From positions 2,007,230 through 2,071,229 of the forward strand of contig CBDCNV010000001.1 in the NCBI GenBank assembly GCA_965219535.1: a stretch of 64,000 nt of DNA, read 5' to 3'. Positions within the stretch are counted from its first letter, which is position 1. Every line of letters starts with the position of its first letter. Positions 48,971 through 64,000 of this stretch are shown here, one piece after another. The notes beneath the pieces are model-generated. The model did no database searches, was not told the DNA's origin, and saw only the letters and a list, made by a program, of their open reading frames with translations. The position numbers were made by a program, and so were the translations under genes. This DNA comes from Opitutales bacterium. Its GTDB lineage: Bacteria > Verrucomicrobiota > Verrucomicrobiia > Opitutales > PNEW01.

Positions 48971-49705
48971 GGGTCATGCCTAGAACAGAGGGTATCTTAA
49001 GCACATATTAAGGATGTTACGATGGAGGTTTTGATGACGATGGTTAAAGCGATATTCAGTTTCTTTGAGGTGCAGTTGGAAGGTCCTACGAGAAAGACCT
49101 TTGAACTTAGCCAATCGAAGTTTAGCAAAAGCCCAAAAAGATTCAATCCCGTTAATGTGGGAGTGTCCCTGGGCAAACTCGTTGTCGTTGTGATTGACAC
49201 GGTAATGCTTCTTATAGCCCAGATCCACGAGGCCGTTGTAAGCACGCCACCCGTCAGAATAAAGCACACTGTCAAAAGTAACTCTCCCTTGGATCACCGC
49301 ATGCAGAGCGGCTCTGGAGACGTTGCGTACAACCTGGGTATAGACTTTCCCATTACGCTTGAGCAACCCGAAGACGGGCACTTTCTTGAATGCACCCCGA
49401 CCTCTTTGCCCTGGAATTCTTTTGCCTCCAAAGTAGGACTCATCCATTTCCACCGACCCCCTAAAAGGCGAGGCCTGCGCACATTGCTGCAACAAACGCT
49501 CCCGCAACAAGCGCAAATAACGGTTGACCGTGTTACGATTCAATCCTGTCAATTGGGCTATCTTCAACGCTTCCATATCCAAGCTAAAACACTTTACTAA
49601 CTGCCGAAATTTGGCCTCAGAAATTTTTGAACGATGTACATACTTATTTCTCATTTGTCTAGAATAGCTTACACATCTGATATGTGTCTATTCTAGGCAT
49701 GACCC
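48971..49705 (-). mobile_element. IS1595-family insertion sequence (IS1016-like size class), apparently intact
   Basis: It is a 735-bp element bounded by perfect 15-bp inverted repeats, GGGTCATGCCTAGAA at 48971..48985 and its complement at 49691..49705. It is flanked by an 8-bp direct repeat, TTAAAAAA, at 48963..48970 and 49706..49713. It carries a single transposase ORF and looks more GC-rich than its flanks. Confidence 0.9.
48980..49654 (-). CDS. IS1595 family transposase (ISXO2-like DDE domain)
   Basis: The N-terminal HTH (IAQLTGLNRNTVNRYLRLLR) is followed by VEMDESYFGG...VFGLLKRNGKVYT...SDGWRAYNGL...HINGIESFW, the IS1595 DDE(N/H)K-type pattern. Confidence 0.9.
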   Translation of the reverse strand: MRNKYVHRSKISEAKFRQLVKCFSLDMEALKIAQLTGLNRNTVNRYLRLLRERLLQQCAQASPFRGSVEMDESYFGGKRIPGQRGRGAFKKVPVFGLLKRNGKVYTQVVRNVSRAALHAVIQGRVTFDSVLYSDGWRAYNGLVDLGYKKHYRVNHNDNEFAQGHSHINGIESFWAFAKLRLAKFKGLSRRTFQLHLKETEYRFNHRHQNLHRNILNMCLRYPLF

Positions 49706-49887: not shown

Positions 49888-50988
49888 TTGAATAACCTAC
49901 CTAACATTCTCGTCGTCGATGATGAACCTATCAATGTCAAATTGCTGCAACGCAAGCTTGAGAAAGAAGGGATGGGTGTGGATGTTGTTTTTGATGGTGA
50001 AGCTGCCTTAAAAAAGATAGCTAAGCGGAGGCCTGACCTCATATTACTGGATATAATGATGCCGGGTCTTGATGGTATTGAAGTCTGTAAACGATTGAAA
50101 AGTGAAGAAAAGACCCAGACCATACCAGTTATATTTATTACCGCTAAGACTTCTAAAGAAGGGAAAATCGCCGGACTCAGTGCCGGGGCAACGGATTACA
50201 TCACTAAGCCCATCGATCTCGATGAAACGATTGCTCGGATTAAGACCCAATTGCAAATTCAAGAAATTCATCGCCAAAATTTAGATCTTCAAGCACGCCT
50301 GAATGATGCTCGTCAGTCTGCGGCTATCGGCGCGATTACCCAGGGCATCGCACACAATCTAAATAACCTGCTTGGCGTGGTTGTAGGCTACCTCGATCTT
50401 ATCGAAAACTGTTCGGATGACCCGAAAATGGTAAAACGCAGTTCTGGCCTGATGAACCAGGCAGTGAAACGCATTGTTAACATTGTCCAACAATTAAGTC
50501 TTTTTGCTACAAAAAATAAAGTTCAACTCACCTTAATGCCTGTCGGGCAATTATTGATTAATAGCATTAATCGATTCAGCACCGAGAACGATATTACCTC
50601 AAAAATCAACCTCTCCAACCCGGAGCCAGAAACGAATATTAATGCGAATGCCGAGGCATTTGAAAACATCTTGGGGCTCTTGCTTATGAACGCCTGGGAG
50701 AGTTACCCACAAGGATGCACTAAAGAACGTAAAATTGATGTTCGAACAAAAATCATCCAGCGCCAGGGAGGTAAACATCTGCAAGTTAAAGTCTCTGACC
50801 ATGGGGAAGGTATTGATCCAAAGATCGCAGATCATGTATTTGAACCTTTTATAACGTCAAAAACTTCAGTCGGTCGCGGTATGGGGCTGACTATCGCGCG
50901 CCATAGCATACGCAGTCTTGGTGGTGATATCACGCTCGCAAAAAATCCCCGCGGGGGTACTTTTGTGACTTTCAATCACCCGTTATAA
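49888..50988 (+). CDS. hybrid signalling protein: N-terminal receiver (REC) domain + histidine kinase (HisKA-like + HATPase)
   Basis: The REC domain has ILVVDDEP...LILLDIMMPGLDG...ITKP. The H-box is GIAHNLNNLLGVV, and the HATPase has DHGEGI and GRGMGLTIAR. No TM segment is present. The start is TTG. Confidence 0.85.
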   Translation: MNNLPNILVVDDEPINVKLLQRKLEKEGMGVDVVFDGEAALKKIAKRRPDLILLDIMMPGLDGIEVCKRLKSEEKTQTIPVIFITAKTSKEGKIAGLSAGATDYITKPIDLDETIARIKTQLQIQEIHRQNLDLQARLNDARQSAAIGAITQGIAHNLNNLLGVVVGYLDLIENCSDDPKMVKRSSGLMNQAVKRIVNIVQQLSLFATKNKVQLTLMPVGQLLINSINRFSTENDITSKINLSNPEPETNINANAEAFENILGLLLMNAWESYPQGCTKERKIDVRTKIIQRQGGKHLQVKVSDHGEGIDPKIADHVFEPFITSKTSVGRGMGLTIARHSIRSLGGDITLAKNPRGGTFVTFNHPL

Positions 50989-56832: not shown

Positions 56833-57336
56833 ATGTCGGATTTTGAACTAAAACCATTACATAAAGATTCCATTCCCGCCGCACTAGATAAGGTCACGCG
56901 TTATCGTCTCCTCAATGAATCGTTTGCAGCTGAAAGTATCTGTCTCGATGTATTAGAAATTGATCCCGATAATCAACATGCATGGGTTCTATTACTCTTG
57001 GCTATGACTGACCAGTTTCTCGAAGGATATAATGTCAGCAATAAAAAGATCCAGGAAGTTCTAACCCGAATAAGCAATGATTACGAACGAACCTATTACT
57101 CAGGTATCGCTCGTGAAAAACGTGCAAAAGCACAATTGAATAAAAGCTCGCCTGGCGCAAACTTTGTTGCCTATGAATTATTTCGTGATGCGATGGAATG
57201 CTATGATCGAGCAATCCCCATCCGTCCAGAGGGTAATGATGATGCGGTTCTTCGGTGGAATACCTGTGCCCGTATCATTATGCGTCACAAGCTTCTGGCC
57301 AAAGAGGAAGATAAAACTATAAACCTTTTAGAATAA
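56833..57336 (+). CDS. hypothetical soluble helical protein, apparently co-transcribed with sdhCAB
   Basis: It is a 167-aa ORF starting 21 nt after sdhB and is followed by a strong terminator. It looks helical and TPR-like, but I recognise no family. Confidence 0.65.
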   Translation: MSDFELKPLHKDSIPAALDKVTRYRLLNESFAAESICLDVLEIDPDNQHAWVLLLLAMTDQFLEGYNVSNKKIQEVLTRISNDYERTYYSGIAREKRAKAQLNKSSPGANFVAYELFRDAMECYDRAIPIRPEGNDDAVLRWNTCARIIMRHKLLAKEEDKTINLLE

Positions 57337-57901: not shown

Positions 57902-58708
57902 ATGCCGAAAAGAGGACAAGTGTTCGCACTTGAACGAGATTACATTTCATACATATTAACCAAGGTTCATAGAACCGATCCCAGAAGTCTTATGAGCAAC
58001 TATGATTTCGATAATTACTCGGATGGTGAATGGGAAGATCGCGGGGAAACCGCTTGGAACGAATTCGATTGGCAGCATTACCTTCAGCAAAATGAACGTG
58101 ATATCGATAAATTTCGTTCCTTTTATGAAAGAGTTAAAAACGAAGCAAACCCGGTAAATGAAGCTGCATTTTTAATGGGTTGGGACCATGAGGATTGGTC
58201 ACATCTCGATCTTGCTTTTGAAGATTTCAACAGTAGCGGCACCGGTGAAATCAGCGAGAGACTCCATGAGGATGAGGAATCTGATTATGATGATCTGGAT
58301 CCTTATACCCTGCATAGACATCCTGTTTTTGTCGTAACGAGAGGCCTCTATCTCGATCTTAAGAAATGTTGGGAGCTGTTTATGAAACGCTGTCCGCGGG
58401 CCATAACTCCCATTATTGCCTGGCAATACGGCAATAGTATCCATCGTGGTGAAATGAATGCTATCCTCTCTATTCAGGCAATTGATATGGGAGATTACGC
58501 GCTTGCTGTGTGTCACCTCAAAACGGCTTTGAGCGACCTTAATCAGTCAATCAGCATCCTGCAAGCGCTGCCAAATAAAAATTCGGGCGTCATACCACAA
58601 TTAAAAAAGGTATCCATGAAACGTCTTTTTGATTTGCGCGAAGTATGGCTCCGCATGATGGGAGATTGCCGTGATGAATTACAACGTCGTTATCAGGACG
58701 GAGAATAG
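57902..58708 (+). CDS. hypothetical protein (acidic, Trp-rich N-terminal half and helical C-terminal half)
   Basis: It is a 268-aa ORF ending 17 nt before the next gene. I recognise no motifs. An alternative start at Met31 (57992) is possible. Confidence 0.65.
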   Translation: MPKRGQVFALERDYISYILTKVHRTDPRSLMSNYDFDNYSDGEWEDRGETAWNEFDWQHYLQQNERDIDKFRSFYERVKNEANPVNEAAFLMGWDHEDWSHLDLAFEDFNSSGTGEISERLHEDEESDYDDLDPYTLHRHPVFVVTRGLYLDLKKCWELFMKRCPRAITPIIAWQYGNSIHRGEMNAILSIQAIDMGDYALAVCHLKTALSDLNQSISILQALPNKNSGVIPQLKKVSMKRLFDLREVWLRMMGDCRDELQRRYQDGE

Positions 58709-58725: not shown

Positions 58726-59532
58726 ATGGTAATCTGGAAAGAGGTAGAACAACTCATTGCGCGCAACGCAGCACCTCGTCCAGATCTTCGTAAGCAATTG
58801 CGACTCGCAATTCAGGGCGATCATCACGCTTACCTTTCTCTCGTCGACCAATACCTCAACCTCGTCGTTGAGTACATGTATTTGAATGGCGGGGGGTGCA
58901 CTTCAGAAGTATCTGATAAAGCACAGCGATTGTTTTTCAGGCTTTGGGAACTATTGCCTTACACCTCACGTTTGTCTGACTTTGAACGTATGCTCACCCT
59001 TGCTTTAATTGGAGAAAAAGGCTCACCGTCAATTTCTCATAATGTATTAAAGGGTAAGATAATGAGAATTCGCCCTTATTTTCGCTTTCTTCTCGTCTCC
59101 CATGAAATGGAGAACTGGCATCGACATTGGATCAGTTTAGCATGCAGATTAAAAAGTAAAGATCTGCATGATTTGATTCTAAACATGCGCTGTGAAATGT
59201 GCGGAATTGATACGTCATTATTGAAGGATGAAGAGCGGCATTGCCTGAATGAGATCTGTCGGGATCTTGAATCGCCTTTTAATCTCAAAAAACGTGCCGC
59301 TATGTGCACAATGATAAAACAATTCTCTAAGATAAAAGACTTTAAAGCCCGATGGCTCGAAATGAAGTGTGAATTAGTCGAACTCCGCCAGGAAATCAGA
59401 TTAACCAATCAAGATAGTGAGAGATTTATCAAAGAGCTTGGTAATAATCTCCATTCTGCAAAAATCCTTCAACCCCAATGGGTGGATCGCGTTTTTAACA
59501 TTATTCATTTTGAGAGTTTCCCAAGTGGTTAA
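58726..59532 (+). CDS. hypothetical protein with degenerate ECF sigma-70-like regions 2 and 4 plus a C-terminal extension of about 100 aa
   Basis: GDHHAYLSLVDQYLNLVVEYMY and AQRLFFRLWELLPY resemble ECF regions 2.1-2.4. IRPYFRFLLVSHEMENWHRHWISLACRLKSKDLHDLILNMRCEM resembles region 4 (LPxxxRxxhxL...IAxxLxxSxxxhxxxLxRAR). The similarity was judged by eye only. Confidence 0.6.
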   Translation: MVIWKEVEQLIARNAAPRPDLRKQLRLAIQGDHHAYLSLVDQYLNLVVEYMYLNGGGCTSEVSDKAQRLFFRLWELLPYTSRLSDFERMLTLALIGEKGSPSISHNVLKGKIMRIRPYFRFLLVSHEMENWHRHWISLACRLKSKDLHDLILNMRCEMCGIDTSLLKDEERHCLNEICRDLESPFNLKKRAAMCTMIKQFSKIKDFKARWLEMKCELVELRQEIRLTNQDSERFIKELGNNLHSAKILQPQWVDRVFNIIHFESFPSG

Positions 59533-59683: not shown

Positions 59684-61219
59684 TTACGAGGCATTCATTC
59701 GCTTCACCACTTCCTGTCGTAAATCTCTTATTTGATTATCATAGTTTTCCCTCGCACGAGAAAGATTGTAGGAAAAATTCTCATGAATCCTCCGATTCGA
59801 TTCTTGCAGCTGTTTTTCTGCTTCATTTCGCATGACTGCGATCATACCTTCTTGCTGTTTTCCAGCTTCTATTATCTTAGCCAGCAATTCATTTCTTAAA
59901 GCTTGTGTTTGATGCTTAGTGTAATCTTTAAAATCTTCTAACCCGTTTTTCTGACTGTGCTCTACTCGAATACGACTAACTGCACTAATAATACTATCGT
60001 GATTATGCCGACTTGATTCCTGAATGCGTTTTTCCATTTCTTTTCGCATATCAGCTAATTTTCCCTGCTGCATTTCTTCTACTGCCATTATCCTTGCAGA
60101 TATATCTTCTTTAAGCGCGCGAGACTGTTTTCTTGCTAAACCCTTTAATGATTCAATCTCTCTACGTTCGAGTTCCGACGATTCAGTGCTGGCAGTTAAA
60201 TATTTATCTCTCAAGCGATGCTCGGTTTCATTAAGTTTAATTGAATATTCGTGACGCAAATTATCGATCTTTCGCCCCTGCTTGCGGTCGATTATTTTAA
60301 TAATCTGTGAAATATCCTCGCGAGATCTCTTCTCGCTCGCTTCTATTTGTTCATTTGATTTGTGCCTTAATTTTTCACTTTCGCCTAATAACCGTTGCTC
60401 GGTTCTCTCCAGTAATTCTCGCGTCGTTTTCTCGCTCGCTTCTATTCGCTCAAGGGACTTATGACGTAATATTTCATTTTCGCTTAATAACCGTTGCTCA
60501 GTCTTTTCCAGTAGTTCTCGCGCTGTTTTTTCACTACTACTTCCAATTTTATTGATAAGAGAAGATGTCGTCGCCTTAAGCGATCTTTGAAACTCCTGGC
60601 GCAAATGAAGTTCGTGCTCTATAAACTCTTTATGCCCTACTCTATCACTTTCCAGTTTATTTGAAATCACCACAGCAGATTGAAGCTTTTTATCCAATTC
60701 ATTGACTGTCTGATTGATATAGGCATCCAGCTGATAGTGTAATTGATTTTTCGTCTCATCCAAATATTGGGTCGAATGACGGTGCAAGGCATCCAAACTG
60801 CTGCCCAGCATATGCTGCATCGTCTTCTTTAAGTTGTCTCTTTCAGTCTCAACTTTTCTACTAATATCATTAATCCGCCTTGTGCTATCCTTACGGTGTT
60901 CGTCCAATCTCAAGTTGAATATGTTTCTTATGTTTTCAACAGATTCTTCAAAACCATGGTGAAAATGATAGCCTTGAGCCCGTTGATCATCGTCATAGCG
61001 TTGACGCTCAATAATAAGTCTTAATTCGAAAAGCCGAAATAATTTTACTGCGGTATAGATAATGAGTATGATCGTTAATGCTGCCCCACCGGTCATATAA
61101 GCCCAGTTGTAATTAACATCAAACACGGACATCCCAAATACCATCGGCACTGAAAGGGCAAAAATATAAAACCATACAGGATATATATCCGCTAAATGTA
61201 CAGAGCTTCTTTTACTCAT
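59684..61219 (-). CDS. membrane-anchored long coiled-coil protein (two N-terminal TM helices, 450-aa charged helical repeat region), paralog of 62353..63315
   Basis: The N-terminus is LADIYPVWFYIFALSVPMVFG...AALTIILIIYTAV, followed by heptad-rich E/K/R/Q sequence with internal 33-aa and roughly 70-aa duplications. Its ATG overlaps the upstream gene's stop by 8 nt. Confidence 0.8.
   Translation of the reverse strand: MSKRSSVHLADIYPVWFYIFALSVPMVFGMSVFDVNYNWAYMTGGAALTIILIIYTAVKLFRLFELRLIIERQRYDDDQRAQGYHFHHGFEESVENIRNIFNLRLDEHRKDSTRRINDISRKVETERDNLKKTMQHMLGSSLDALHRHSTQYLDETKNQLHYQLDAYINQTVNELDKKLQSAVVISNKLESDRVGHKEFIEHELHLRQEFQRSLKATTSSLINKIGSSSEKTARELLEKTEQRLLSENEILRHKSLERIEASEKTTRELLERTEQRLLGESEKLRHKSNEQIEASEKRSREDISQIIKIIDRKQGRKIDNLRHEYSIKLNETEHRLRDKYLTASTESSELERREIESLKGLARKQSRALKEDISARIMAVEEMQQGKLADMRKEMEKRIQESSRHNHDSIISAVSRIRVEHSQKNGLEDFKDYTKHQTQALRNELLAKIIEAGKQQEGMIAVMRNEAEKQLQESNRRIHENFSYNLSRARENYDNQIRDLRQEVVKRMNAS
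60325..60522. repeat. two tandem copies of a 99-bp (33-codon) unit inside the coiled-coil gene
   Basis: CTCGCTCGCTTCTAT recurs at 60332 and 60431, giving a 99-bp period. The two units are recognisably similar with scattered substitutions. At protein level the units read SEKTARELLEKTEQRLLSENEILRHKSLERIEA and SEKTTRELLERTEQRLLGESEKLRHKSNEQIEA. Confidence 0.85.
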
Positions 61220-62036
61220 GAATAGTATTGATTTTTCCGAAGAGCAGTGGTTTGCAAAGACTAAGATGTGTCACCGCAACCCATTTTGTGTTTTCCATTT
61301 GAGCTTCAATCGTAATCGATGTGGAACCAAATGGCAGTTTAAATAAAAATTCAAATCCCGAATGCAGAATTTCATCTTCCGATTCAAACATATAGTCCAA
61401 CTCTCTCCTTTCAATTAAATATTGGCTTTCGACAAACTTATCTCCTGCCTTACCGCGAATGTTTATAATCTTCGCACCATCTATTGAAAAGCACCAACCG
61501 CGAAGTCGAGTATTATTGCCATTTGATTTGTAATTCTCAGGTTCATCTAACTGAAAATTAAAACCATGATTCACTCGATAGCTATTACCATTAATTGCTT
61601 TATTTAATTTACTCCCGCCTTTAAGTATCGTCGCATCGGCAAGCGTGCCCCCAACAAAGGGGAACCAGCTACTCGAGTTCATCTTTTTTACTTCGAGACT
61701 GAATGGAACTCTATCGGCAGTCATCGGAACTGAGAGATCAAAGCCAGAATGAATGATCGCTATTTTCTCACCGAACGACATTAATTCAGACCTTTTAATC
61801 CCATAATTGCCTATGCTCTCATCTTCTTCTGTAACACAGCGTATTTCTGATATTTCAGCATAATCTTCAGAAAAGCACCATCCACTGATATAAGCTAATC
61901 GTTCATCGAGTGTAGATTTCCGCACTGTCTCTATCTCATAAATAAATCCATTATTCCCCAGAAACCCTGTTCCTTTAGGAGAAGTGGGTAGATACGGACT
62001 AAGACCCGTTAATGCTATATCTTCATTAGACAACAT
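61212..62036 (-). CDS. hypothetical soluble protein made of two tandem 'GWCF' beta-type domains, paralog of 63308..64000
   Basis: It contains an internal duplication. The first half reads ISGWCFSEDYAEISEIRCV...YGIKRSELMSF...HSGFDLSVP...SLEVKK...W. The second half reads LRGWCFSIDGAKIINIRGK...YLIERRELDYMF...HSGFEFLFK...TIEAQM...W. No signal peptide is present. Confidence 0.8.
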   Translation of the reverse strand: MLSNEDIALTGLSPYLPTSPKGTGFLGNNGFIYEIETVRKSTLDERLAYISGWCFSEDYAEISEIRCVTEEDESIGNYGIKRSELMSFGEKIAIIHSGFDLSVPMTADRVPFSLEVKKMNSSSWFPFVGGTLADATILKGGSKLNKAINGNSYRVNHGFNFQLDEPENYKSNGNNTRLRGWCFSIDGAKIINIRGKAGDKFVESQYLIERRELDYMFESEDEILHSGFEFLFKLPFGSTSITIEAQMENTKWVAVTHLSLCKPLLFGKINTIHE

Positions 62037-62352
62037 AGCAGCAGAAAGTGAACCTCACAGTTTACGAAACGAAGATGACATATATCAATTTTATATTTCA
62101 GTAGATTGCTATAAGTCATGAGCGATGCCTATTAAAATTATTATATATGTTTTTATCCAATCACAAAAGACTATTTACAGAAAACCTTTTTACATTCGGA
62201 CTTCTGATTAACGCTTATACATTCTTTATATGTAAATAGAATGTATTGGGGTAGTAACAGAACTGCGTTTAACTAACGCGTATAGCGGAAGAATCGGCTT
62301 CCTTAATCGATGATTAATTAAGGATAGTAACATTTATAAGAATATAGGTTTC

Positions 62353-63315
62353 TTATCGCTTCTTATTCCTCTTTTTTTTCACCCTCGATTTAGAGAGAGT
62401 ACTTCTAAGTGTTGATACATTTTTACTTTTCCGGGAAGAGCCTTTCGGTTGCGTTTTTGTTTTTTTCTTAACCGAGATACTTTTTTTTGTCTTCTTTTTC
62501 GTTTCCTTAACCTTGGATTTAGACTTCGTTTCCTTAGCTTTTTTACTTTGGCTTTTTTGTCCAACTACTTTTGAACGTTTAATCAAATTTCCATTAAGTT
62601 CTGCAATTGTATCTTCAATGGATTTTTTCATTTCCTTGCGAAATTGAACACTGAAATTTTCTAAATCTTTCTTTAGCAGGGTGTCTTTAAATTGCTTGTT
62701 CGCCTCGAGAGAAAACTGTTTAAGCTTACTCAACTTAGCATCCTGTTTGACTAAACTAGTATCAATTGATCTTTCGAGTTTATCAAAAGATTTTTGAATT
62801 TCTTCACGAAGACGGTCTCCGTGTCCAACGAGATCGTCTTCGTGGATTACATCTTTCAATTGCTTGTTTTTCTCTGATGCTAGAACTTTAATTTTCTTAT
62901 CCAGGGCACGAAGCATTACCAGATTTTCCGCTTCAAGATCCTTGTGAAGCTTTTTCCTCGTTGATTCACTTTGCTCCGCTACCACCTTATTAAATTTATC
63001 CAAATGAGACGTAATTTCAGTTCGGTATTCATCAAAGGTACGTTTAAATTCTTTTCCAAAATTATATTCAAAATCTCTAAGGTCTTCCTTGTACCGACGA
63101 TTCAAAATATCGATATGAGAATTACGCAGCTGTGAGGCTCTTATTGCAGTATAGGCGATGAGAAATATGGTAATTATTCCCGCGGCGAATATAAAAAAGG
63201 AAGCAAAGGGTATTCCTGTAATAGCCACGCCGAATAGCAGGGGAACCGCTGCGGCGAGACAAACAGCCCATCGAGGATAACAATCAGATAAGAGGATCGA
63301 TATTTTTTTATTCAT
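62353..63315 (-). CDS. membrane-anchored coiled-coil protein with an extremely lysine-rich C-terminal tail, paralog of 59684..61219
   Basis: Its N-terminus (LSDCYPRWAVCLAAAVPLLFG...IITIFLIAYTAI...RRYKED) aligns with the other coiled-coil protein. The last 70 aa or so are K/S/T-rich (KSQSKKAKETKSKSKVKETKKKTKKSISVKKKTKT...KKKRNKKR). Confidence 0.8.
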   Translation of the reverse strand: MNKKISILLSDCYPRWAVCLAAAVPLLFGVAITGIPFASFFIFAAGIITIFLIAYTAIRASQLRNSHIDILNRRYKEDLRDFEYNFGKEFKRTFDEYRTEITSHLDKFNKVVAEQSESTRKKLHKDLEAENLVMLRALDKKIKVLASEKNKQLKDVIHEDDLVGHGDRLREEIQKSFDKLERSIDTSLVKQDAKLSKLKQFSLEANKQFKDTLLKKDLENFSVQFRKEMKKSIEDTIAELNGNLIKRSKVVGQKSQSKKAKETKSKSKVKETKKKTKKSISVKKKTKTQPKGSSRKSKNVSTLRSTLSKSRVKKKRNKKR

Positions 63316-64000
63316 GAATAAAATTAACCTTACGCGGGAATAAAGGAAGACAGAGAGTTCCCTGAATTACCGTCAACCAATGTTCGTCCTCCAATTGCGC
63401 TTCGAGGGTAATTGGAGTTGTCCCTGGTCGAGGATTGAGAGAAATCTCAAACCCAGAATGGAATATTGTATCGTTATCACCAAATTTTTCGATTAATTCA
63501 ATACTTTCCAAATTGTATCTTCCCATGACACTGGAACGATCAGTGACACAACGAATACCTTTAATTGTTGATAGGTCTTCATTAAAACACCACCCACGCA
63601 AATAATACTCAGAACCGTCGGCTTTTATATTTTCAGTCTCGTAGAGATTAAAAAGAAAACCATTTTTAACGCGGTATGGCTTACCATTCATATCGATGCG
63701 CTTATATATCCCTTCATCTTCTACAGTTTGTTGTTCACTGCCCAGCGCTCCCTTCATGACGATTAACCAGTCATCTGAACCATTTAATTTTGCTTCCAGG
63801 GTAAACGATAGCTCTCCGTCAGGTGCCGGTATGGAGATTTCAAATCCGGCATTAAGACTTGCATTAACTTTACCAAAATTAACTAATTCAGTTCTCTTAA
63901 TCCCGTAACGCGCAATAATTTCGGAATGTTCCGTTTGCAACCTGACACTCGTCACCTCGGTTAAGTTCTCTGAAAAACACCAGCCACTAATTATAAGAAC
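63308..64000 (-). CDS. hypothetical two-domain 'GWCF' protein, 5'-truncated by the window edge
   Basis: The frame stays open to position 64000 (VLIISGWCFSENLTEVTSVRLQ...), so the GTG at 63955 is internal. The second domain reads LRGWCFNEDLSTIKGIRCV...HSGFEISLN...TLEAQLEDEHW. It ends in FIHE, as its paralog ends in TIHE. Confidence 0.8.
   Translation of the reverse strand, partial: VLIISGWCFSENLTEVTSVRLQTEHSEIIARYGIKRTELVNFGKVNASLNAGFEISIPAPDGELSFTLEAKLNGSDDWLIVMKGALGSEQQTVEDEGIYKRIDMNGKPYRVKNGFLFNLYETENIKADGSEYYLRGWCFNEDLSTIKGIRCVTDRSSVMGRYNLESIELIEKFGDNDTIFHSGFEISLNPRPGTTPITLEAQLEDEHWLTVIQGTLCLPLFPRKVNFIHE

What the first reader, a model, noticed from the sequence alone, without database searches (positions are those of the whole stretch)
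59684..64000. Tandemly duplicated, translationally coupled two-gene module: double 'GWCF' domain protein plus 2-TM-anchored coiled-coil protein
Two consecutive minus-strand copies of the same gene pair are present. Copy 1 is 63308..>64000 followed by 62353..63315. Copy 2 is 61212..62036 followed by 59684..61219.

The first gene of each pair encodes a soluble protein built from two repeats of a domain of about 110 aa. The conserved landmarks are (L/I)xGWCF, then I(R/K)xV/G, then Y-x-(I/L)-x-R-x-E-L, then HSGF(D/E), then (L/I)E(V/A), then W.

The second gene encodes a protein with a short N-terminus and two TM helices with conserved landmarks YPxW, VPxxFG, YTA and RY. After the TM helices comes a long charged coiled coil.

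In both copies the stop of gene 1 and the start of gene 2 overlap by the same 8 nt (ATTCATGAGTAA and ATTCATGAATAA). Gene 1 therefore always ends in IHE and gene 2 always starts inside it. That argues for translational coupling and for a stoichiometric complex.

I cannot assign either protein to a named family. From memory, the GWCF...R-E-L...SGF pattern is reminiscent of the beta-sandwich accessory domain found at the termini of some glycosyl- and methyl-transferases (xGWA...RPDV...GF), but that is only a recollection.

The array runs off the window edge, so more copies may follow. A membrane-tethered scaffold or cytoskeleton-like pair is a plausible function, but it is purely inferred.
Basis: partly seen in the sequence, partly recalled or inferred. 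Interest (0 to 1): 0.8.

Follow-up and report, generated by a model that had tools for sequence, protein, structure and literature searches.

The report
Membrane-anchored rod plus Ig-like adaptor pair
Marine Opitutales bacteria carry two old copies of an unnamed gene pair, a soluble protein of two Ig-like domains and a membrane-anchored helical rod that differs in length between strains; it is probably a cytoplasmic scaffold, possibly for sugar-polymer assembly, but its function is untested.

Summary
Two minus-strand pairs (1a/2a and 1b/2b) are paralogous, and each pair overlaps by the same 8 nt, ATGA(A/G)TAA. That overlap is kept in 20 of 20 junctions across 12 sequences from marine Opitutales. 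All four genes are under purifying selection (dN/dS 0.11-0.38). The array does not continue: every complete locus has exactly two pairs.

Gene 1 is an acidic cytoplasmic protein of two Ig-like beta-sandwich domains. The domain has no Pfam, NCBIfam or PDB match.

Gene 2 is a lineage-restricted orphan with a two-helix membrane hairpin and a 250-450-residue helical rod. The rod is not heptad-based: its period is 3.67 in 2b and 3.75 in 2a. Its length differs between near-identical strains in 33- or 55-residue steps. Paralogue 2a ends in a 70-residue lysine-rich tail.

My best reading is a split, enzyme-free version of the membrane-anchored coiled-coil scaffold found in glycan polymerase/terminator complexes. 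The function is inferred, because no glycan genes flank the locus. Interest is moderate.

The parts
63308..64000 (-). Gene 1a, 3' 230 codons plus stop. The full protein is 268 aa in orthologues, so the first 38 codons lie beyond the window. It is a soluble acidic protein of two Ig-like domains.
   Evidence: full-length orthologues L003:5777-6583 and L001:7985-8791
63308..63315 (-). 8-nt overlap ATGAATAA: the stop of gene 1a and the start of gene 2a.
62353..63315 (-). Gene 2a (320 aa): N-terminal membrane hairpin, helical rod with period about 3.75, and a lysine-rich tail.
63136..63273 (-). Gene 2a two-helix hydrophobic hairpin (aa 15-60), with conserved P14, W16, P25 and T56.
62356..62565 (-). 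Gene 2a C-terminal 70-aa basic tail (31 K/R, 2 D/E). A basic tail is present in all 2a orthologues and absent from 2b.
62037..62352 (-). AT-rich 316-bp spacer between the pairs. It probably holds the promoter of pair b and a weak hairpin after gene 2a. No Rfam match.
61212..62036 (-). Gene 1b (274 aa): two Ig-like beta-sandwich domains (aa 24-133 and 152-274), pI 5.2, no TM segment or signal peptide.
61212..61219 (-). 8-nt overlap ATGAGTAA: the stop of gene 1b and the start of gene 2b.
59684..61219 (-). Gene 2b (511 aa): membrane hairpin (aa 15-60, nt 61040-61177) followed by a helical rod of about 450 aa with hendecad (11/3) periodicity.
60330..60529 (-). 99-bp tandem repeat encoding the 33-aa (3 x 11) unit SEKTxRELLExTEQRLLxExExLRHKSxExIEA. 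It is present in 2 copies here and in 1 or 3 copies in strains about 96% identical over shared residues.

Best explanation
Shown. The locus holds two ancient paralogous copies of a two-gene module found only in a clade of marine Opitutales (Verrucomicrobiota).
- Gene 1 encodes a soluble, acidic protein of two Ig-like beta-sandwich domains with no signal peptide.
- The other members of that domain family sit between an N-terminal coiled coil and the GT2/GT4 catalytic modules of large polysaccharide-synthesising enzymes.
- Gene 2 encodes a short N-terminus, a two-helix hydrophobic hairpin, and a 250-450-residue helix with a single narrow hydrophobic stripe at 11/3 (2b) or 15/4 (2a) periodicity.
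- The rod's length changes between strains in multiples of 11 residues.
- Paralogue 2a ends in a polybasic tail.
- The genes overlap by a conserved 8 nt.

Inferred.
- Charge distribution around the hairpin places both ends of gene 2, and therefore the rod, in the cytoplasm.
- Termination-reinitiation at ATGA(A/G)TAA makes the two proteins in a fixed ratio, and they form a complex.
- The hairpin anchors an oligomeric, non-supercoiled or right-handed helical bundle that projects from the inner membrane.
- The Ig-like protein docks on the part conserved between 2a and 2b: the N-terminal peptide, the hairpin and the juxtamembrane RRY..D.R...Y.F segment.
- The complex is then a non-catalytic scaffold or spacer at the cytoplasmic face of the membrane.

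Function. In the fused relatives the order is coiled coil, then this domain, then GT2 polymerase modules, sometimes with a methyl- or sulfotransferase at the far end. On that basis the most likely job is to organise or space glycan-assembly enzymes encoded elsewhere. That would make it a split, enzyme-free counterpart of WbdD/WbbB-type coiled-coil scaffolds.
For: Conservation:
- Paralogy of both genes.
- The 8-nt overlap in 20 of 20 junctions, and a fixed 1a-2a-1b-2b order in every locus.
- dN/dS of 0.11-0.38 for all four genes.

Gene 1:
- The AF2 model of 1b shows two beta-sandwiches, with mean pLDDT 75 and cores above 85.
- Foldseek matches tandem Ig/FN3 proteins.
- Exhaustive phmmer gave 55 hits. 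The closest outside the family are GT2 enzymes carrying 3-4 copies of the domain (P0007, E 3e-41; P0008, E 8e-21).
- Pfam scans of the hits show GT2, GT4 and methyltransferase modules C-terminal to the domain.
- Domain mapping with a simple coiled-coil heuristic flags a charged heptad-compatible segment N-terminal to the domain in P0012, P0024, P0028, P0029, P0035, P0039, P0041, P0043 and P0054; the segment is long and obvious by eye in P0028.
- P0007 lies in a heptose/LPS-like glycan cluster.

Precedent:
- Published work on coiled-coil proteins as membrane-associated scaffolds and rulers for glycan polymerases, with modules either fused or split between polypeptides (PMC11231755).

Gene 2:
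- Periodicity power at 3.67 is 168-185 against a shuffle mean of 10 +/- 9, with nothing at 3.5. This holds in all orthologues.
- 33-aa unit copy-number variants of 478, 511 and 544 aa.
- AF2 of 2b is all-helical with a hairpin.
- Positive charges flank the hairpin and gene 1 has no signal peptide, so a cytoplasmic location is inferred.
Against: - No glycosyltransferase, wzm/wzt transporter or other glycan gene flanks the module in any genome. The neighbours are SDH, acylphosphatase, fumarase, a GFO/IDH/MocA oxidoreductase and unannotated ORFs.
- Neither protein carries a catalytic or terminator domain.
- Ig-like domains are generic modules. The same family also occurs as Big_7 repeats in secreted glucosaminidases, so the domain does not by itself imply glycan assembly.
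- Gene 2 has no detectable relative outside the clade, so nothing links it by descent to WbdD or WbbB.
- The AF2 model of 2b has low confidence (pLDDT 63), and the oligomeric state is unknown.
Confidence: 0.35

Rival explanations
1. A cytoskeleton-like or tethering structure unrelated to glycans. The rods would form membrane-attached filaments or struts. The polybasic tail of 2a would bind DNA (a membrane-nucleoid tether) or another anionic polymer. The Ig-like proteins would cap or regulate assembly.
For: - Non-heptad long-period coiled coils are typical of bacterial cytoskeletal rod proteins such as Scy and FilP (my own knowledge).
- The 70-aa tail with 31 K/R is conserved in character in all 2a orthologues.
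- The genomic context is housekeeping, not glycan-related.
- The two paralogous rods differ in length.
Against: - No homology to any known cytoskeletal or nucleoid-associated family. The SlmA hit is far below threshold (20.8 bits against 120) and falls in helical sequence.
- 2b lacks the basic tail.
- It does not explain why the partner domain is otherwise found fused to glycosyltransferases.
Confidence: 0.25
2. The helical region is not a coiled coil. It would be an apolipoprotein-, perilipin- or synuclein-like 11-mer amphipathic helix that lies flat on a lipid surface, coating or shaping membranes or lipid bodies, with the hairpin as a monotopic anchor.
For: - A strict 11/3 periodicity with no heptad signal.
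- A weak Apolipoprotein A1/A4/E hit (E 0.0014, 18.8 bits) and a KMP-11 hit.
- A conserved proline in the first hydrophobic helix and a very short loop.
- The polybasic tail could bind anionic lipid.
Against: - The Pfam hits are far below the curated cut-off (90 bits).
- The hydrophobic face is only one residue wide (about 26-31% apolar residues), which is closer to a coiled-coil core than to class-A lipid-binding helices.
- It gives no role for the Ig-like partner.
- 2a has a 15/4 period, not 11/3.
Confidence: 0.1
3. An anti-phage defence or other conflict system whose long cytoplasmic tail acts as a sensor or effector platform, by analogy with the ZorA tail in Zorya.
For: - Weak PADLOC hits of 2b and 2a to the tail part of ZorA3 (E 1e-4 and 8e-3).
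- Fast evolution and length variation between strains.
- One ENA fragment (P0005) joins the 3' half of gene 1b to a region with an integrase-type Pfam hit.
Against: - The hits cover only helical tail sequence. There is no MotA/ExbB domain, ZorB partner, nuclease or ATPase.
- The module is in a fixed syntenic chromosomal position among housekeeping genes in all genomes, not in a variable island.
- No relatives in viral contigs or plasmids.
Confidence: 0.05
4. Spurious or decaying ORFs with no function.
For: No annotation in any source, a narrow taxonomic range, and a low-complexity lysine tail.
Against: - dN/dS of 0.11-0.38 with dS up to saturation.
- Intact reading frames and an intact junction in at least 11 independent loci.
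- A confident domain fold.
- Indels stay in frame and in multiples of 11 residues.
Confidence: 0.02

Closest known systems
The family is not modelled and is distantly related to Pfam Big_7 (PF17957).
   Same: - Significant sequence homology (E 3e-41 to 1e-10).
- The same conserved G-W, R, R and G-F positions.
- An Ig-like beta-sandwich of about 95-110 aa in tandem copies.
- Cytoplasmic location inferred (no signal peptide).
- Frequently adjacent to a coiled coil.
   Different: - Gene 1 is free-standing with no catalytic module.
- It carries R-x-E-L in place of R-P-D-V.
- The coiled coil is on a separate, membrane-anchored polypeptide.
- The Pfam Big_7 model itself does not hit it.
WbdD (E. coli O9a / K. 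pneumoniae O3), WbbB (K. pneumoniae O12 / Raoultella) and K. pneumoniae O7 ORF6: coiled-coil scaffold and ruler proteins of ABC-transporter-dependent O-antigen assembly.
   Same: - A membrane-associated extended helical rod on the cytoplasmic face.
- Modules can be fused or split between polypeptides.
- ORF6-O7 is also modelled with an extra beta-sandwich 'CBM' of unknown role.
- Rod length is the functional variable (PMC11231755).
   Different: - No sequence homology was detected.
- There is no terminator kinase, methyltransferase or GT domain.
- The anchor is a two-helix hairpin at the N-terminus, not a C-terminal amphipathic helix.
- The periodicity is hendecad or pentadecad.
- The locus is not in a glycan gene cluster.
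Bacterial non-heptad rod proteins: Scy/FilP 51-residue repeats, and the hendecad or pentadecad segments of tetrabrachion and trimeric autotransporter stalks (from my own knowledge).
   Same: A long helical rod with period above 3.6 and repeat-unit length variation.
   Different: There is no homology. Those proteins are soluble cytoskeletal or extracellular, whereas this one is anchored to the inner membrane with a dedicated Ig-like partner.
ZorA tail (Zorya) and chlamydial Inc proteins (bilobed hydrophobic domain plus coiled coil).
   Same: The overall layout: a membrane domain followed by a long cytoplasmic helical tail.
   Different: - There is no MotA/ExbB domain or ZorB partner.
- The organism is a free-living-type Opitutales genome, not a chlamydia.
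- There is no evidence of secretion.

Membership tests
GT-associated Ig-like accessory domain family (unmodelled, Big_7-like) | Significant sequence similarity to the domain repeats of GT2/GT4 enzymes | tested here: met
   phmmer against 1.84 billion representatives: P0007 E 2.9e-41, P0008 7.8e-21, and 17 hits at E <= 1e-10. GT modules were confirmed by Pfam.
GT-associated Ig-like accessory domain family (unmodelled, Big_7-like) | Beta-sandwich (Ig-like) fold | tested here: met
   AF2 gives two all-beta domains with core pLDDT 83-94. Foldseek PDB hits are tandem Ig/FN3 proteins at E 2.5e-5 or weaker, with low TM (0.2) because the two-domain orientation differs.
GT-associated Ig-like accessory domain family (unmodelled, Big_7-like) | Covalent attachment to a catalytic glycosyl- or methyltransferase module | tested here: not met
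   Gene 1 is 268-274 aa and consists of the two domains only.
Pfam Big_7 (PF17957) | Match to the Pfam model at or above its gathering score | tested here: not met
   No Pfam hit at E <= 1 for gene 1 or for 42 GT-type domain copies. The relation shows only through phmmer hits to Big_7-bearing proteins P0015 (E 1.4e-12) and P0030.
WbdD/WbbB-type coiled-coil ruler of glycan assembly | Extended membrane-associated coiled coil on the cytoplasmic side | tested here: inconclusive
   A long helix with a narrow hydrophobic stripe and a membrane hairpin is present. The period is 3.67/3.75 rather than heptad, and the oligomeric state is unknown.
WbdD/WbbB-type coiled-coil ruler of glycan assembly | [quoted passage not shown] | tested here: not met
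   No catalytic domain in any of the four proteins.
WbdD/WbbB-type coiled-coil ruler of glycan assembly | Location in a glycan biosynthesis cluster with the wzm/wzt ABC transporter | tested here: not met
   The neighbours are SDH, acylphosphatase, fumarase, an oxidoreductase and hypothetical ORFs in the window and in L001-L005.
WbdD/WbbB-type coiled-coil ruler of glycan assembly | Rod length determines polymer length | not testable with these tools
   Only the precondition is seen: natural length variants of 478/511/544 aa (2b) and 320-375 aa (2a).
Zorya ZorA | MotA/ExbB/TolQ membrane domain with a ZorB partner | tested here: not met
   The PADLOC hit covers only tail positions 357-589 of 780 at E 1e-4. 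There is no MotA Pfam hit and no ZorB-like neighbour.
Apolipoprotein A1/A4/E (PF01442) | Match at the Pfam gathering score | tested here: not met
   18.8 bits against a cut-off of 90.

The most novel reading that the evidence does not exclude
The module would be a free-standing, modular 'ruler kit'. An inner-membrane-anchored hendecad rod changes length in 33- or 55-residue (about 5-8 nm) steps between strains. A dedicated Ig-like adaptor recruits separately encoded glycan polymerases. Marine Verrucomicrobia would then tune surface-polysaccharide chain length by repeat expansion and contraction in a non-enzymatic gene. The two paralogous kits (short with a basic tail, long without) would serve two polymers.
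Probability: 0.15. Interest if true: 0.6.

Novelty: new variant of a known kind. Interest (0 to 1): 0.4.

Why it matters
If the scaffold reading is right, this would be the first case where the coiled-coil and beta-sandwich 'chassis' of a glycan polymerase/terminator machine exists as its own translationally coupled gene pair without any enzyme. Natural rod-length alleles would be available to test the ruler idea.

Independently of function, two results stand:
- The work identifies a widespread cytoplasmic Ig-like domain of multi-module glycosyltransferases that has no match in the Pfam (2025) and NCBIfam copies searched and no detectable relative among solved structures.
- It documents a long membrane-anchored rod with clean 11/3 and 15/4 periodicity in two paralogues.

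The module is confined to one marine Opitutales clade, so its general importance is limited.

Tried and rejected
Family and structure searches that gave nothing usable:
- Pfam, NCBIfam and PADLOC scans of all four proteins returned only sub-threshold helical-composition hits (Apolipoprotein, KMP11, SlmA C-terminus, ZorA tail). I rejected these as memberships.
- PDB profile searches with the full-length alignment and with a 42-sequence domain alignment found nothing.
- Foldseek against PDB returned only generic Ig/FN3 tandems.

Gene 2 homology:
- A profile of the hairpin region returned one 85-aa TARA fragment.
- The full-length search returned only orthologues.

Hypotheses rejected:
- Chlamydial Inc-like effector. 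It was raised by the hairpin plus coiled-coil layout and dropped once the taxon proved to be Opitutales.
- Mobile or viral origin. There are no relatives in viral contigs or plasmids.

Other negative checks:
- The inter-pair spacer has no Rfam match and no conservation beyond relatedness.
- Promoter and terminator consensus scans were at or below shuffle expectation.
- The two neighbouring 268-aa ORFs are not paralogues of each other or of the module.
- Literature searches for Big_7 and for hendecad membrane anchors found no prior description.

Full report
OBSERVATION. ORF listing and translation confirm four minus-strand genes:
- 1a: 63308..>64000, open to the window edge.
- 2a: 62353..63315, 320 aa.
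- 1b: 61212..62036, 274 aa.
- 2b: 59684..61219, 511 aa.

Gene 1a and 1b share 41% identity (E 6e-57), and BLASTP also detects the internal two-fold repeat (E 2e-19). Gene 2a and 2b share 25% identity over the first 214 residues (E 1e-19). The DNA shows ATT CAT GAA TAA at 63308-63315 and ATT CAT GAG TAA at 61212-61219, with the next gene's ATG inside. That is an 8-nt overlap in both pairs.

ORIGIN AND CONSERVATION. A pattern scan of one genome per species found three loci, all in Opitutales/Verrucomicrobia MAGs. One of them is a 4.49 Mb chromosome with a 98% identical gene 1b (L003, OY829953.1). A 2.29 Mb ENA contig (L001) and six marine metagenome contigs (L006-L011) carry the same genes.

- In every locus the order is 1a-2a, a spacer of roughly 220-410 bp, then 1b-2b.
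- Every complete locus has exactly two pairs.
- One flank carries a divergent 99-aa ORF, a GFO/IDH/MocA oxidoreductase and fumarase. The other flank carries hypothetical ORFs followed by succinate dehydrogenase; in most loci (not L005) an acylphosphatase lies between them.

So the array does not continue past the window. Only the first 38 codons of gene 1a are missing.

All 20 junctions examined read ATGA(A/G)TAA.

Nei-Gojobori dN/dS is 0.11-0.38 for all four genes, with dS ranging from 0.1 to saturation. The genes are real, fast-evolving and under purifying selection. No source gives any of them a name.

GENE 1. There is no Pfam, NCBIfam or PADLOC hit. The word-indexed search found only orthologues. 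The exhaustive phmmer search over 1.84 billion representatives found 55 hits. After the orthologues, the best are large proteins with 1-5 copies of the roughly 95-aa domain.

Pfam shows GT2 modules (often two), GT4, and sometimes methyltransferase or sulfotransferase modules C-terminal to the repeats. Weaker hits (E 1e-12 to 1e-5) are secreted proteins with 5-8 Big_7 Ig repeats plus SH3 and glucosaminidase. These place the domain in the Big_7-like Ig superfamily, although the Pfam model itself does not hit it.

My domain mapping uses a simple coiled-coil heuristic. In many glycosyltransferase relatives it flags a coiled-coil-like segment before the domain (P0012, P0024, P0028, P0029, P0035, P0039, P0041, P0043, P0054). 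The sequence is very clear in P0028.

The closest non-family relative, P0007, lies in a heptose/LPS-like cluster with SIS, HAD and NTP-transferase genes, a GT9 and a multi-GT2 protein.

AlphaFold2 on an 18-sequence alignment gives two beta-sandwiches (aa 24-133 and 152-274). Each has a small two-helix insert at the R-x-E-L...SGF motif. Mean pLDDT is 75 and the cores are at 83-94. Foldseek against PDB returns only tandem Ig/FN3 proteins. Sequence profiles find no solved relative.

Gene 1 is acidic (pI about 5) and has no hydrophobic segment, so I infer it is cytoplasmic, like its glycosyltransferase relatives.

GENE 2. Both paralogues have the same layout:
- A basic 14-residue N-terminus.
- Two hydrophobic helices (about aa 15-34 and 41-60) joined by a 4-6-residue loop.
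- Arg/Lys after the second helix.
- Conserved P14, W16, P25 and T56, and a juxtamembrane RRY..D.R...Y.F segment.

By the positive-inside rule both termini face the cytoplasm. This is an inference.

The remainder has no proline and is predicted all-helical by AF2. The long helices are 37-191, 196-222, 233-419 and 424-510, at pLDDT 63.

A Fourier analysis of hydropathy shows no heptad signal. For 2b the peak is at 3.66-3.68 residues, with power about 170-235 in the full-length (478-511 aa) orthologues, against a shuffle mean of 10 +/- 9. For 2a the peak is at 3.74-3.77. Both hold in every orthologue. These values correspond to hendecad (11/3) and pentadecad (15/4) repeats. When the sequence is written in rows of 11, the apolar residues fall at positions 1, 4/5 and 8, which is a one-residue-wide stripe.

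Length varies in multiples of 11:
- A 99-bp tandem repeat (60330-60529) encodes a 33-aa unit.
- That unit is present once, twice or three times in proteins about 96% identical over shared residues (478, 511 and 544 aa).
- The window's 2a (320 aa) lacks a 55-aa unit that is present in the 98%-related L003 (375 aa).

Across loci 2a is 320-375 aa and 2b is 389-544 aa. All 2a orthologues end in a lysine-rich tail, which here is 70 aa with 31 K/R and 2 D/E. 2b has none. No relative of gene 2 was found outside the clade.

CONTEXT. The surrounding 64 kb is ordinary chromosome. It encodes sigma-54, AlaRS, EF-Tu, a TonB receptor, an oligopeptide-binding protein, FabF/FabG, FolD, P5C reductase, an epimerase and SDH. 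No glycan cluster is adjacent. Rfam, promoter and terminator scans and an alignment of the inter-pair spacer gave nothing notable. There are no relatives in viral contigs or plasmids.

INTERPRETATION.

Shown:
- A conserved, duplicated, overlapping gene pair.
- It encodes a soluble tandem Ig-like protein with no signal peptide, plus a protein with an N-terminal hydrophobic hairpin and a non-heptad helical region whose length varies between strains.

Inferred:
- A cytoplasmic location for both proteins and for the rod.
- 1:1 production through termination-reinitiation.
- A physical complex.
- A scaffold or spacer role.

The only functional lead is domain fusion. In other bacteria the same Ig-like domain sits directly between a coiled coil and GT2 polymerase modules. 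That layout matches the WbbB / K. pneumoniae O7 ORF6 class. In that class the coiled coil is a membrane-associated scaffold and chain-length ruler, and the modules may be fused or split across polypeptides (PMC11231755).

I therefore favour a split, enzyme-free scaffold for glycan assembly, with confidence about 0.35. The lack of any glycan genes nearby, the absence of catalytic domains and the generic nature of Ig domains keep this low. The rivals are:
- A cytoskeletal or nucleoid/membrane tether, in which the basic tail matters (0.25).
- A lipid-surface-binding 11-mer amphipathic coat (0.1).
- A defence system (0.05).
- Non-function (0.02).

NOVELTY AND SCORE. The parts are familiar kinds: an Ig-like domain, a membrane hairpin and a helical rod. 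The free-standing, translationally coupled combination has no described counterpart. The accessory-domain family is not covered by Pfam or PDB, and gene 2 is a lineage-restricted orphan. I rate it a new variant of a known kind.

Interest is 0.4. It is a tidy, testable module with unusual rod periodicity and natural length alleles. It is also confined to one marine clade and has no demonstrated function.

Noticed in passing
L003:5200-5499 (-) and L001:7297-7596 (-); just beyond window position 64000: A divergent 99-aa ORF lies immediately upstream of gene 1a. It has two hydrophobic helices followed by a charged helix (HHIEKA.EKR...EEKM.EFRKKL), so it looks like a miniature of the gene 2 layout. 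It is conserved in L001-L005 and has only a sub-threshold PspB hit.
   Followed up: partly
window 57902-58708 (+) and 58726-59532 (+): Two adjacent 268-aa ORFs run convergent to gene 2b and have no Pfam or PADLOC family. Both are syntenic in L001, L003 and L004; L005 shows only one ORF of this kind. They are not paralogues of each other (E 0.2). The first has an acidic stretch (HEDEESDYDDLDPY).
   Followed up: partly
window 48980-49654 (-): An IS1595/ISXO2-type DDE transposase (E 7e-29) sits among housekeeping genes, about 10 kb from the module. A 192-aa ORF overlaps it on the opposite strand.
   Followed up: no
P0005 (185 aa, ENA contig of 1023 bp): This fragment's C-terminal 134 aa are 91-92% identical to the second half of gene 1b. 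Its N-terminal part carries a precomputed PF02899 (phage integrase SAM-like) hit. This may reflect a rearrangement or an assembly chimera at this locus in one sample.
   Followed up: no
proteins P0007-P0057 (not in the window): The cytoplasmic 'GWC...R(P)DV...SGF' Ig-like domain of multi-module GT2/GT4 enzymes has no Pfam model and no PDB relative. It often follows a coiled coil. In P0007 each copy is followed by a helical segment of about 65 aa, giving a 160-aa super-repeat.
   Followed up: partly
window 56833-57336 (+): A 167-aa ORF with weak TPR-like hits lies directly after the SDH iron-sulfur subunit. It is conserved at the same place in L001-L004 and could be an SDH-associated factor.
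   Followed up: no
window 49888-50988 (+): A hybrid protein with an N-terminal response-regulator receiver domain and a C-terminal HATPase_c domain lies next to the transposase.
   Followed up: no
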